IMG/VR virus record: IMGVR_UViG_2579778670_000004
Source: a virus
Taxonomy: Duplodnaviria > Heunggongvirae > Uroviricota > Caudoviricetes
Length of the DNA stretch: 44,004 bases
Reading direction: 5' to 3' (one strand)
Under the pieces are notes generated by a model. It ran no database searches and was not told the origin of the DNA. It saw nothing but the letters and a program-made list of their open reading frames with translations. Both the position numbers and the translations under genes were made by a program. Within the stretch, counting starts at the first letter, position 1; every line of letters starts with the position of its first letter. Below are positions 37,197 through 40,666 of the stretch, piece by piece.

Positions 37197-38151
37197 ATGA
37201 CCATTTTTAACGGCTTGTTAGAAGCGAAAAAAGGCGCGCTCAAAAACGGCGCGATCCCGGCGCTGGCCATCGCCATCGCCGCCCCTAACAAAAAAGTTGC
37301 CGAGAACATCATCATCGGCAAATTGTGGGAAGCCTACCCTGACCACGGCGACAACTATTTCAAACCTAAAATCTGGGAAGATGCCCCGGGCCAACCGCGC
37401 CCAGGCGTCGGTGAGTTTGATGAGACGTTTGCCACAGAACACAGTTTTGATGGCGAAAAATGGGTAGTTAACACTCCTGTTGATTCAGATTGCAGTTCAG
37501 CAGATATCTCACAGGTTAGCGACCTGATGAAACTGCCGGCTCGTGAACGATTCGCCGCCGTTCTGCTGTTCAGCCACGACGCCAACGAAGTCGACAGTGA
37601 ATTGCTTGTGCAGACGCGTGAATACCTGGAGATGCTCGATAACAGTGATACTGACAGTGAGGATGAGGTTGACGCGTTTAACCGCATCGTTCTTGATGCC
37701 ATGGTGGCGTGTAAGCCCATCGAGTACATGCATATTGCTGGATTGAATAATCTGGTACATGCAATTTTGGCAAGTTGCGATACCCAGGAACAAAACCCGA
37801 CCAGTTGGACTATCTCCAAATTTATAAAAAAATGGGTAGAGAATCCCGGTAAACGAGATGAAATGCTGCCGGAGGTAAAACCAGAAACAGCATCCGCACG
37901 TCCTTACAAACAGACTCACGCCACTCTGGATCGTGAAATTGCCTGCGCCCTGTTACCTGTTGCCCCGGAAAAAATCACCCCCAGCATCCTGAAAGCGGCA
38001 GACGAAATAATCAGTCAGGACAGGGAAGATTTTAAACGCTGGTCAATGGCCTTGCGCACAACGGATCAGATCCTTGCCTATGACCGCGCATCAGTATTCG
38101 GTGTTATTCAGAGCGCCCCCGCAAAAGACACGTACCACTTCCCACAATCCC
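37197..38151 (+). pseudogene. 5' part (codons 1-318) of a roughly 738-codon gene disrupted by IS911
   Basis: Reading frame runs into the IS left end at 38152; after removing the IS and one CCC target copy the frame continues into 39405..40666 without a stop. Confidence 0.6.
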
Positions 38152-38181
38152 TGAAGTGGTCAACAAAAACTGGCCACCGAG

Positions 38182-39000
38182 TTAGAGTTTTTTCCAGTAT
38201 CGATTTTCCGATTCGTTTGGTGGTAACCCACCATTATATTCGTGCGGTCTTAGTGCGCTGTAATATCCAACGATATAGTCCGTTATTGCGTGAGCTGCAT
38301 CGCTGAAGCTTACATAGCCCGTCGCCGGCACCCATTCGTTCTTCAGACTCCTGAAGAAGCGCTCCATTGGGCTGTTATCCCAGCAGTTTCCACGCCGACT
38401 CATACTCTGCCTGATCCGGTATCTCCACAGTAACTGCCGGAACTGCCTGCTCGTATAATGACTGCCTTGATCGCTGTGGAACATCACCCCGACGGGCTTA
38501 CCACGGGTTTCCCATGCCATTTCCAGTGCTTTCATGGTAAGCCTGCTGTCCGGCGAGAACGACATGGCCCAGCCCACTGGTTTTCTTGCGAACAGGTCGA
38601 GAACAACGGCGAGGTACGCCCAGCGCTTACCCGTCCAGATATAGGTCACATCACCGCACCACACCTGATTTGGCTCGGTCACGGCGAACTGCCGTTCAAG
38701 GTAGTTAGGGATAGCAACATGTTCATGACCACCACGTTTATACCGGTAAGTCGGCTGCTGACAGCTGACCAGCCCCAGCTCTTTCATGAGTCTGCCAGCA
38801 AGCCAGCGCCCCATCTGGTAGCCTCTCTGGGTTGCCATTGTGGCGATGCTTCTTGCTCCGGCAGAGCCGTGGCTGATGCCATGCAGTTCAAGTACCTGGC
38901 TGCGTAATACAGCCCGTCTGCCGTCTGGCTTTTCAGGACGGTTTTTCCAGTATTTGTAGCTGCTGCGATGGACCCCGAACACATGGCAGAGAGTGGCCAC
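38182..39000 (-). CDS. IS911 transposase OrfB (catalytic DDE domain; normally expressed as OrfAB by -1 frameshift)
   Basis: 272-aa ORF with IS3-family integrase-core pattern. Confidence 0.8.
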
Positions 39001-39026
39001 AGGATAACGCGCCCTGAGTTTCCCGA

Positions 39027-39329
39027 TTATCGAGAACTGTTCAGGGAGTCTGACATCAAGAGCGCGGTAGCCTTTTTTAATATTTCATTTTCCATTTCAA
39101 TACGTTGTAGCTTTTTCCTGAGCTCACGGATTTCAATTTGTTCCGGGGTAATAGGGGAGGCTTTTGGTGTTTTTCCCTGCCGCTCATCACGTAATTGTTT
39201 CACCCATCGCGTCATTGTGGAAAGGCCGACATCCATAGCGCTGGCTGCATCTGCCACGGTGTAATTCTGGTCAACGACCAGTTGAGCGGATTCGCGTTTA
39301 AACTCTGCGCTGAAATTTCTTTTTTTCAT
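39027..39329 (-). CDS. IS911 OrfA (HTH/leucine-zipper transposase component)
   Basis: Start set at internal Met ([10 protein letters not shown]...), 100 aa; slippery ATTAAAAAAGG near the 3' end. Confidence 0.8.
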
Positions 39330-39404
39330 TATGGCACCTGTGTTGTTCTGAGGTGAGCATATCACCTCTGTTCAGGTGGCCAAATTCAGTAAACCACTTC
39401 ACCC

Positions 39405-40666
39405 TGCGCAGTCACATCGACAACTGGCTGCAAGCTAACGGGCAGCGTGATGCAAATGCTGTTGAAGAGAAGCCAAAGGAAGCAGCACCCAAGGATGATG
39501 TAAAAGTCACCAACCACGGCGGCGGACGATTCTCAATTGATGGGATGATGTCAGAAACACCCTCAAATCAGGGCGAAAAAAGCGAAGCTGCAAATGCTGG
39601 AGAACGTAGTTTGCAGCAGTTGCGTGAGCAGTTTGTCACGCCTCGCCATGTGTATGACGTACCTGAAAATAACGCCGTATCACAGAGGGAACCTGCAGCT
39701 ATTACCCTGGCAGAAGAGACTCCTCCACAAGAACAACTTAGCGAGCAGGTAAAGGATCTGGTGCAGAACGTTGACGCGCTGGTTGAGCGGATCCATGCCG
39801 AAGAGCACAAGCGGCAGAATGCAATCTCAGCTATCGAAACGGAGTTAAAGGACTCAGATGACACGGATAACCTGGCATTGTGGAAGAACGTATTCAAAAC
39901 CGATGAGCGCTTCACCAGTGCTTTCTCTCAGAATGGCGGCGGCACATCCATCAACGGCACTTATATAGCGATGAAAGCGACTCGCGAATTTGGGCCATTT
40001 GGTATTGGCTGGGGGGTAGAGGTGCTGGAGGAGCGCTTTGATAAAGGCGCACCAATAGTTCGCAAAAAACAGGTTGGTGAAAAAATAGAATGGGATCTGA
40101 TTCAAGACGGTGTTGGCGGGTACCTATGTGAAATGCACCACACCATGAAAGTGAGAGTCTGGTACATATTGAATGGGGTACGCGGTGAGTCCGAGGCTTA
40201 CGGATGCACACCTTATATCTACGACACTAAATACGGACCAACAAGCGACGGCGAAGCACCGAAGAAATCCTGGACGGATGCTGTTAAGAAAGCGCTATCC
40301 CCTCTCGGATTCAGCGCCGATATTTTCATGGGCCTGTACGACAATCCGGAATACCGCCAGAGGAATAAAGCTGAGTTTGATATCAAGAATGCCAGCGAGA
40401 ATGCGGAAGATGCTACCCGTCTGCGTAAGGAACTGGATGAGAAGCTTATCAACGTTGCCAATACGCTGGCCGCCGCGGTAACCGCCAACGAAGTAAACAA
40501 GGTATTTGGCCTCATCGCCCGCGAAGTGGATGTACACAGGAAAGCAGCGGAAACCAAAGGCGATAAAGAATATTCATCGTATCTGGGATCACGTCTGCGC
40601 CGTATCACCGACATTAAAACTGAACGCCTCGCCGCCCTTACCGCTGCACAGGAGCAAACAGCATGA
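39405..40666 (+). pseudogene. 3' part of the IS911-disrupted gene; contains a Rad52/Sak-like single-strand annealing domain
   Basis: Frame contiguous with 37197..38151 after IS excision. Motifs FGPFGIGWGVEV and KKSWTDAVKKALSPLGFSADIF resemble the conserved Rad52-family cores (FG..GW and K.A.TD..KRAL..FG) as remembered. Confidence 0.5.

What the first reader, a model, noticed from the sequence alone, without database searches (positions are those of the whole stretch)
37197..40666. IS911 insertion with CCC target duplication splits one long gene cleanly
The IS (38152..39401) has matching terminal inverted repeats and identical CCC triplets at 38149..38151 and 39402..39404. Deleting the IS and one CCC copy joins the two ORFs in frame (...YHFPQS-L-RSHIDNW...) into a single 738-codon frame with no stop. 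The insertion is therefore a simple, probably recent transposition that inactivated a recombination gene and may have left the prophage defective.
Basis: seen in the sequence. Interest (0 to 1): 0.55.

Follow-up and report, generated by a model that had tools for sequence, protein, structure and literature searches.

The report
IS911-like element interrupting a prophage recombinase gene
A 1250-bp IS911-like insertion sequence (named ISEc52 in RefSeq) has jumped into a 738-codon E. coli prophage gene that probably encodes a DNA-annealing recombinase; this is a real but ordinary and already annotated mutation.

Summary
Window 38152..39401 is an intact 1250-bp IS3-family element on the minus strand, flanked by CCC at 38149-51 and 39402-04. 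Removing the IS and one CCC gives a 2217-nt ORF of 738 aa. That ORF is base-for-base identical to the uninterrupted gene WP_000151806.1 in E. coli SA186.

About 430 complete E. coli genomes, including ST131 EC958, carry the uninterrupted gene. Six carry this insertion. The window is 100% identical to strain S14.

Three points need correcting:
- **IS name.** RefSeq calls the element ISEc52. It is 94% identical to the element RefSeq calls IS911.
- **Gene function.** The gene has no recognised RecE nuclease domain, despite "exonuclease" labels. Its C-terminal domain has a RAD52-like fold (Foldseek E 1e-6), so "recombination gene" is supported by inference. The N-terminal half resembles only the part of RecE whose function is unknown.
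- **Prophage defect.** Loss of prophage function cannot be attributed to the IS. This prophage also carries a +1 frameshift in its P2 gpD-like tail gene, a variant that is itself widespread.

Two other strains carry identical ISEc52 copies elsewhere in the same operon. Verdict: real, simple and relatively recent, already present in public annotation, low novelty.

The parts
37197..38151 (+). 5' fragment of the interrupted 738-codon gene (codons 1-318 plus the first base of codon 319). As it stands the frame runs on into the IS and stops at 38306, giving a 369-aa product with a 51-aa IS-encoded tail.
   Evidence: The exact 369-aa product is on record (WP_252494213.1, KDG63511.1) on 41 contigs. 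Residues 233-336 match the RecE family profile at positions 262-370.
38149..38151 (.). Left copy of the 3-bp target-site duplication (CCC).
   Evidence: The empty site in SA186 has a single CCC.
38152..39401 (-). Intact IS3-family insertion sequence, 1250 bp. RefSeq labels it ISEc52 and it is IS911-like. IRR is at 38152..38187 and IRL at 39366..39401.
   Evidence: inverted repeats match at 25/36. (RefSeq label). (94.2% identical to the BL21 element labelled IS911; 0 mismatches to the copies in AR_0055 and Ec55). (96.6% identical to the K-12 IS911A remnant).
39027..39329 (-). orfA of the IS (100 aa, helix-turn-helix).
   Evidence: 100-aa ORF. (HTH_Tnp_1, E 6e-14). Same length as IS911 OrfA (PMC2909936).
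39072..39078 (-). A AAA AAG slippery heptamer, the site of the programmed -1 frameshift.
   Evidence: A -1 shift here yields an uninterrupted 382-aa OrfAB, the length reported for IS911 (PMC2909936).
38182..39072 (-). orfB frame of the IS (DDE / rve catalytic domain).
   Evidence: rve, E 1e-31. (NF033516 transpos_IS3, 302.8 bits against a cut-off of 160)..
39402..39404 (.). Right copy of the 3-bp target-site duplication (CCC).
39405..40666 (+). 3' fragment of the interrupted gene (last two bases of codon 319, then codons 320-738 and the stop). RefSeq annotates it in S14 as a pseudogene missing its N-terminus.
39851..40663 (+). C-terminal domain (aa 468-738). A RAD52-like single-strand-annealing fold occupies roughly aa 476-632, followed by long helices.
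   Evidence: AlphaFold model with mean pLDDT 88.5. The six best Foldseek hits are all human RAD52 N-terminal domain, E 1e-6 to 4e-6, and the next hit is at E 0.07. 33 of 39 family members hit Pfam Rad52_Rad22 at E up to 1; the window protein itself scores 13.6 bits, below the cut-off. hhalign E 0.001. Free-standing homologues of about 243 aa exist.
40663..41232 (+). Downstream gene of the same operon, Siphovirus Gp157 family. It overlaps the stop of the interrupted gene by 4 bases.
   Evidence: PF05565, E 9e-29. (phrog_253, 'Mu Gam-like end protection').
41624..41887 (+). Excisionase-like gene (DUF4224), downstream of the IS in the same transcriptional direction.
   Evidence: phrog_1266 excisionase, E 5e-35..
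41856..42872 (+). Tyrosine integrase, next to the tRNA-Leu gene that marks this end of the prophage.

Best explanation
One copy of an active IS3-family element inserted by copy-out-paste-in transposition into codon 319 of a 738-codon gene. The element is ISEc52, a close relative of IS911. The gene lies in the early-left operon of a prophage with a lambda-like head and a P2-like tail, integrated beside tRNA-Leu between yecA and pgsA in E. coli.

The insertion duplicated 3 bp (CCC) and nothing else was rearranged. The IS lies antisense to the gene, so the full-length protein cannot be made. What remains is a 318-aa N-terminal piece with a 51-aa nonsense tail, and a 3' fragment that lacks the gene's own start codon and ribosome-binding site.

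The lost protein is most likely a phage single-strand-annealing recombinase. It has a RAD52-like C-terminal domain joined by a long linker to an N-terminal domain that is also found in the non-catalytic part of RecE.

Shown: the structure of the insertion, the identical empty site, and the distribution among genomes. Inferred: the transposition mechanism (from the family), the biochemical function of the protein, and any effect on the phage.
For: - **Anatomy.** Searches give the coordinates, the inverted repeats, the CCC duplication and the in-frame join.
- **Empty site.** The excised sequence has 0/2217 mismatches to the annotated CDS in SA186. Only 6 differences were found in 42,751 bp across the whole prophage.
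- **Distribution.** 439 complete genomes carry at least 80% of the gene, and 6 carry this insertion. The window is identical to S14.
- **IS is intact and active.** OrfA is 100 aa, the A6G site is present, and OrfAB is 382 aa, matching IS911 (PMC2909936). It has rve and transpos_IS3 domains. Identical copies sit at two other sites with 3-4-bp duplications.
- **Protein.** RAD52-like fold, sub-threshold Rad52_Rad22 hits across the family, hhalign, and phage homologues labelled DNA repair or single-strand-annealing protein. No match to RecE residues 564-866, the nuclease domain (PMC11611040).
Against: - The protein's own Pfam Rad52_Rad22 score (13.6 bits) is below the 20.3-bit cut-off. A sequence profile of the family found no solved RAD52 structure. 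The annealing function therefore rests on a predicted fold and weak profile matches.
- The N-terminal domain has only a moderate model (pLDDT 71.6) and no fold match. A catalytic role for it is not excluded.
- RefSeq flags the transposase as 'frameshifted'. I read that as the programmed frameshift not being modelled, not as a defect.
- Whether the 3' fragment is still expressed was not tested.
Confidence: 0.9

Rival explanations
1. The two ORFs are naturally separate genes and the IS landed between them. The in-frame join would then be a coincidence.
For: Deleting 0, 3 or 6 bases at the junction all leave an open frame, so frame continuity alone is weak evidence.
Against: The uninterrupted 2217-nt CDS exists and is identical in hundreds of genomes. 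Homologues at 53-69% identity read straight through the junction. The exact 738-aa protein is on at least 1000 contigs.
Confidence: 0.01
2. The element is IS911 itself.
For: It has the same length (1250 bp), the same OrfA and OrfAB lengths and the same frameshift motif (PMC2909936). It is 96.6% identical to the 764-bp remnant annotated IS911A in K-12.
Against: RefSeq labels all copies that are 97% or more identical as ISEc52. Elements labelled IS911 are about 94% identical, with a different IRL (TGAAGTGGCACAC against TGAAGTGGTTTAC). OrfA is 92% and OrfB 96% identical at protein level. ISfinder itself could not be consulted.
Confidence: 0.15
3. The interrupted gene encodes an exonuclease of the RecE (exonuclease VIII) type, as PHROG 2489 and recent RefSeq names say.
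For: PHROG 2489 'exonuclease' matches full length. phrog_607, phrog_2082 and NCBIfam PRK09709 match residues 232-336. RefSeq names include 'exonuclease family protein' and 'phage-associated endonuclease'.
Against: The match is to RecE positions 262-370, inside the N-terminal region of unknown function, not to the nuclease domain at 564-866 (PMC11611040). The score is 46 bits against a cut-off of 1269. There is no Pfam nuclease domain. The C-terminal domain folds like RAD52.
Confidence: 0.1
4. The IS insertion is what made this prophage defective, by loss of the recombinase and/or by polarity on gp157, xis and int.
For: The IS lies upstream of gp157, xis and int in the same operon. Annealing proteins are required for replication of some temperate phages (PMC5499656). 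Two other strains carry ISEc52 in the same operon.
Against: No functional data exist. The same prophage copy has a +1 frameshift truncating the gpD-like tail gene from 347 to 257 aa, and that variant occurs on at least 1000 contigs independently of the IS. From general knowledge, lambda red mutants grow on recA+ hosts. All other genes are identical to IS-free strains.
Confidence: 0.25

Closest known systems
IS911 (IS3 family, Shigella/E. coli) and its near relative ISEc52
   Same: It is 1250 bp long, with 36-bp imperfect terminal inverted repeats that start TG and end CA. orfA is 100 aa, the A6G -1 frameshift gives a 382-aa OrfAB with a DDE (rve) domain, and it makes a 3-bp target duplication. 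It is 94% identical in DNA to the element RefSeq labels IS911.
   Different: RefSeq labels it ISEc52, not IS911. It differs in IRL at positions 9-11 and at 6% of bases overall. No comparison with ISfinder references was possible.
Sak / RAD52-type phage single-strand-annealing proteins (Pfam PF04098; phage ul36 Sak, 80alpha Sak)
   Same: The predicted fold of residues about 476-632 matches the human RAD52 N-terminal domain. The GG..I.G......A.E.FG..GW and KK..TD..KKAL..LG motifs align. It sits in the early recombination region of a temperate phage, next to a Gp157-family gene.
   Different: It scores below the Pfam threshold. It is fused behind a 318-aa N-terminal domain and a linker of about 150 aa, whereas most relatives are free-standing proteins of about 243 aa. 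No partner exonuclease gene was recognised next to it. No biochemistry is available.
RecE (exonuclease VIII) of the Rac prophage
   Same: About 100 residues (233-336) match the RecE family at positions 262-370. The gene occupies a comparable place, between the immunity region and xis/int.
   Different: [quoted passage not shown] The shared segment lies in the part of RecE whose function is unknown.

Membership tests
IS3 family, IS911/ISEc52 group | Length about 1.25 kb with imperfect terminal inverted repeats ending 5'-TG...CA-3' | tested here: met
   1250 bp. The ends read TGAAGTGG...CCACTTCA, and 25 of 36 terminal positions match.
IS3 family, IS911/ISEc52 group | Two overlapping frames, orfA and orfB, fused by a programmed -1 frameshift at A AAA AAG | tested here: met
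   OrfA is 100 aa, A6G lies at 39072-39078, and the -1 shift gives an open 382-aa OrfAB. Same lengths as IS911 (PMC2909936).
IS3 family, IS911/ISEc52 group | DDE transposase (rve domain) above the curated threshold | tested here: met
   Pfam rve 109.7 bits against a cut-off of 32.6. NCBIfam transpos_IS3 302.8 bits against a cut-off of 160.
IS3 family, IS911/ISEc52 group | 3-4-bp target-site duplication | tested here: met
   CCC on both sides and a single CCC in the empty site. The two other insertions show AAG and (G)TTC.
IS911 proper (as opposed to ISEc52) | Closest named reference element is IS911 | tested here: not met
   RefSeq labels this copy and all copies that are 97% or more identical as ISEc52. 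Copies labelled IS911 are about 94% identical. ISfinder references were not available.
RAD52/Sak single-strand-annealing proteins | Pfam Rad52_Rad22 (PF04098) at gathering threshold | tested here: not met
   13.6 bits against a cut-off of 20.3 for the window protein. 33 of 39 family members hit at E up to 1, best E 1.4e-5.
RAD52/Sak single-strand-annealing proteins | RAD52 N-terminal-domain fold | tested here: met
   Model pLDDT is 88.5. The top six Foldseek hits are all human RAD52, E 1e-6 to 4e-6, probability 1.00, target TM-score 0.46-0.61. The next hit is at E 0.07.
RAD52/Sak single-strand-annealing proteins | Oligomeric ring and ATP-independent ssDNA annealing activity | not testable with these tools
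   This needs purified protein.
RecE / exodeoxyribonuclease VIII | C-terminal PD-(D/E)XK nuclease domain (RecE residues 564-866) | tested here: not met
   BLASTP against K-12 RecE aligns only residues 243-308 to RecE 263-332. NCBIfam PRK09709 scores 46 bits against a cut-off of 1269 and covers only profile positions 262-370.
Simple (non-rearranging) transposition event | Flanks are collinear with an empty-site allele, and the only changes are the IS plus the duplication | tested here: met
   0 mismatches in the gene and in 11.5 kb of flanks. 6 unrelated differences across 42.7 kb.

The most novel reading that the evidence does not exclude
Recurrent ISEc52 insertions may be selected rather than neutral. 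Three independent insertions, all in the same orientation, lie within 3.4 kb of this prophage's early-left operon and all upstream of xis/int. They could 'ground' the prophage in these (largely ST131) E. coli lineages by removing its recombinase and blocking excision. The gene they hit would then be an unrecognised class of phage recombinase, a RAD52-like annealing domain fused to the enigmatic RecE N-terminal domain, which is currently mislabelled as an exonuclease.
Probability: 0.1. Interest if true: 0.4.

Novelty: already known. Interest (0 to 1): 0.12.

Why it matters
It matters little in itself. IS insertions into prophage genes are routine, and this one is already annotated in RefSeq as an ISEc52 transposase beside a truncated pseudogene. 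It has two modest uses:
- It is a clean lineage marker for a small group of E. coli strains.
- It draws attention to a widespread 738-aa prophage protein whose public labels ("exonuclease", "endonuclease") are probably wrong. [quoted passage not shown] Studying it could help explain what that RecE domain does.

Tried and rejected
- **Pfam on the full 738-aa protein.** No family at E up to 0.01.
- **Sequence searches against solved structures.** Both the single protein and the family profile found only chance hits.
- **N-terminal domain.** The model is only moderate (pLDDT 71.6) and Foldseek against the PDB found nothing with E below 0.26. Its function stays unknown. Homologues carry precomputed Pfam PF27430, which is not in the local Pfam copy.
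- **IR-like sequences at the three insertion sites (IS911-type targeted insertion).** Best matches were 8-9 of 12 bases, which is not convincing.
- **Promoter and terminator scan.** No strong plus-strand terminator inside the IS, only two weak hairpins, and no promoter that would drive the 3' fragment. This was uninformative.
- **Literature.** I found no open paper stating the IS911 3-bp duplication explicitly, so that point rests on general knowledge. The EC958 genome paper did not let me assign this prophage a Phi number.
- **H1-H3.** I first counted these as carrying the same insertion. They turned out to have the intact gene with the IS at other sites.
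Full report
**1. The observation**

- The element occupies 38152..39401 and is exactly 1250 bp. It begins TGAAGTGG and ends CCACTTCA.
- Its two 36-bp ends are imperfect inverted repeats, matching at 25 of 36 positions.
- CCC is present at 38149-38151 and at 39402-39404.
- Joining 37197..38151 to 39405..40666 gives 2217 nt. This is 738 codons and a stop, with no internal stop, reading ...YHFPQS-L-RSHIDNW... across the join.
- Frame continuity alone is weak evidence, because deleting 0, 3 or 6 bases all keep the frame open.

**2. The empty site exists**

A megablast of 37197-40666 against 5,426 complete E. coli genomes found many records in which the two gene halves abut over exactly 2217 bp.
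- In strain SA186 this is annotated as one CDS, WP_000151806.1.
- The in-silico excised sequence has 0 mismatches to it, and the site reads CACAATCCCTGCGCAG with a single CCC.
- With the IS removed, the whole window differs from SA186 at 4 substitutions and 2 single-base indels in 42,751 bp.
- The window is identical over all 44,004 bp to strain S14, NZ_CP107114.1 311399-355402, reverse complement.
- More distant homologues also read through the junction. A Salmonella protein has DTYHFPESLRRHIDSW. A phage record covers 98% of the protein in one piece at 53% identity.

**3. Distribution**

- 439 complete genomes hold at least 80% of the gene, including ST131 reference strain EC958.
- Only six carry the IS at this site: S14, R8, 1448, 1444, E19 and Ec-U4.
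- Three further records seemed to match but actually have the intact gene. They carry an identical ISEc52 copy elsewhere in the same operon.
  - AR_0055 and ATCC BAA-2469 (near-identical records) have it at the window equivalent of 41268, inside a 60-aa ORF, with duplication (G)TTC.
  - Ec55 has it at the equivalent of 41586, just upstream of xis, with duplication AAG.
- In the larger protein collection the intact 738-aa protein is on at least 1000 contigs. The 369-aa truncated product is on 41 contigs and the 437-aa ORF that starts in the IS end is on 62.

The allele is therefore a minor, probably clonal, variant. One carrier, CHS 69 (KDG63511.1), is a separate earlier deposit.

**4. The insertion sequence**

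- It lies on the minus strand.
- OrfA is 100 aa (HTH_Tnp_1). An A AAA AAG motif lies at 39072-39078. A -1 shift there gives an open 382-aa OrfAB with an rve domain.
- These are the lengths and layout published for IS911 (PMC2909936).
- RefSeq marks the transposase 'frameshifted'. That is what an unmodelled programmed frameshift looks like, so I find no defect.
- RefSeq labels this and all copies that are 97% or more identical 'ISEc52 family'. Copies labelled 'IS911 family' are about 94% identical.
- Against the BL21 IS911-labelled copy, identity is 1177/1250 bases. It is 92% in the OrfA part and 96% in the OrfB part.
- Against the 764-bp IS911A remnant of K-12 it is 96.6%.

'IS911-like' is right; the nearest named element is ISEc52. 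The three identical copies at three sites, each with a 3-4-bp duplication, show the element is active in these lineages. The copy-out-paste-in mechanism is inferred from family membership (PMC3299598, PMC2909936).

**5. The interrupted gene**

- Pfam finds nothing in the full protein.
- PHROG 2489 ('exonuclease') matches full length. The RecE-type profiles match only residues 232-336, which correspond to RecE positions 262-370. BLASTP against K-12 RecE aligns only 243-308 to 263-332.
- RecE's nuclease domain is residues 564-866 and its N-terminal part has no known function (PMC11611040). The 'exonuclease' labels therefore look like annotation carried over from a non-catalytic segment.
- The C-terminal 271 residues have free-standing homologues of about 243-280 aa in Pseudomonas, Yersinia and others. 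One of these is named Rad52/Rad22 family.
- 33 of 39 aligned family members hit Pfam Rad52_Rad22 at E up to 1, best E 1.4e-5. The window protein itself scores 13.6 bits, below the cut-off.
- An AlphaFold model of this domain has mean pLDDT 88.5. Its six best Foldseek matches in the PDB are all human RAD52 N-terminal domain (E 1e-6 to 4e-6), and the next hit is at E 0.07.
- hhalign of the family against human RAD52 1-212 gives E 0.001 over 127 columns and aligns the two conserved motifs.
- Phage homologues of this domain are labelled DNA repair protein or single-strand-annealing protein.

I conclude, by inference, that the gene encodes a RAD52/Sak-type annealing protein fused to a RecE-N-like domain. 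The N-terminal domain model is only moderate and matches no solved fold. The IS sits at codon 319, at the boundary between the N-terminal domain and the linker.

**6. Context and consequence**

- The prophage has lambda-like head genes, a P2-like contractile tail, a Q antiterminator, and divergent cI-like and cro-like regulators. Its integrase lies next to tRNA-Leu, between yecA and pgsA.
- The interrupted gene lies in the leftward early operon: 106-aa ORF, 738-aa gene, Gp157-family gene, 60-aa ORF, xis, int.
- The IS is antisense to this operon, so the full-length protein cannot be made.
- Polarity on gp157, xis and int is possible but untested. The pattern scan was uninformative.
- Whether losing the annealing protein cripples the phage cannot be decided here. 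Sak and Sak4 are required in S. aureus phages (PMC5499656). From general knowledge, lambda red mutants are viable.
- This prophage copy also has an extra T at window 277 that truncates its gpD-like tail gene from 347 to 257 aa. Both variants are on at least 1000 contigs, so this lesion is independent of the IS and far more widespread.

A defective prophage, if it is one, cannot be attributed to the IS.

**7. Verdict**

This is a real, simple and relatively recent transposition into a probable recombinase gene. It is correctly described apart from the element's exact name and the speculative consequence. It is ordinary and already present in public annotation. The only mildly interesting by-products are the likely misannotation of a widespread prophage protein and the three independent ISEc52 insertions in one short operon.

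Noticed in passing
window 272-1045 (minus strand); indel at 277: An extra T relative to strain SA186 frameshifts the P2 gpD-like tail (late control) gene, giving 257 aa instead of 347 aa. Both variants are each seen on at least 1000 contigs. Many carriers of this prophage, including this one, may therefore be tail-defective regardless of the IS.
   Followed up: partly
window equivalents 41268 and 41586 (L005:4320-5569, L006:4638-5887): Two further independent insertions of an identical ISEc52 copy lie in the same operon of the same prophage in other strains (AR_0055/ATCC BAA-2469 and Ec55). They have the same orientation, lie upstream of xis/int, and show duplications (G)TTC and AAG. This may be a hot spot or a selected target. 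No IR-like target sequence was found.
   Followed up: partly
window 30291-30488 (minus strand): Rfam finds isrK, C4 antisense RNA and its a1/b1 target sites just upstream of an ORF6N-domain (antirepressor-like) gene at 29451-30239. This is a P1/P7-type c4-ant immunity module inside a lambdoid/P2-tail hybrid prophage.
   Followed up: no
window 35836-36845: About 1 kb has no annotated gene, between the cI-like HTH gene and the 106-aa ORF. It contains several terminator-like hairpins on the minus strand and only overlapping ORFs of under 100 aa.
   Followed up: no
window 37197-40666 (restored gene); RefSeq records: The same 738-aa protein is named 'hypothetical protein', 'exonuclease family protein' or 'phage-associated endonuclease' in different RefSeq genomes, and 'exonuclease' in PHROG 2489. 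No nuclease domain was found, so the labels appear to derive from a match to the non-catalytic N-terminal part of RecE.
   Followed up: yes
window 36753-36778 and 37176-37201: A 26-nt direct repeat (88% identical) covers the ribosome-binding site and start of the 738-codon gene. A second copy lies 423 bp upstream, before the 106-aa ORF, but without an ATG.
   Followed up: no
window 27728: A homopolymer length difference (C8 here, C9 in SA186) in an intergenic stretch of the prophage.
   Followed up: no
L004:301-1548 (E. coli BL21): The BL21 element that RefSeq labels IS911 with a 'programmed frameshift' has A5G rather than A6G at the slip site and is 1248 bp long. It is therefore probably not a typical active IS911 copy.
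   Followed up: no
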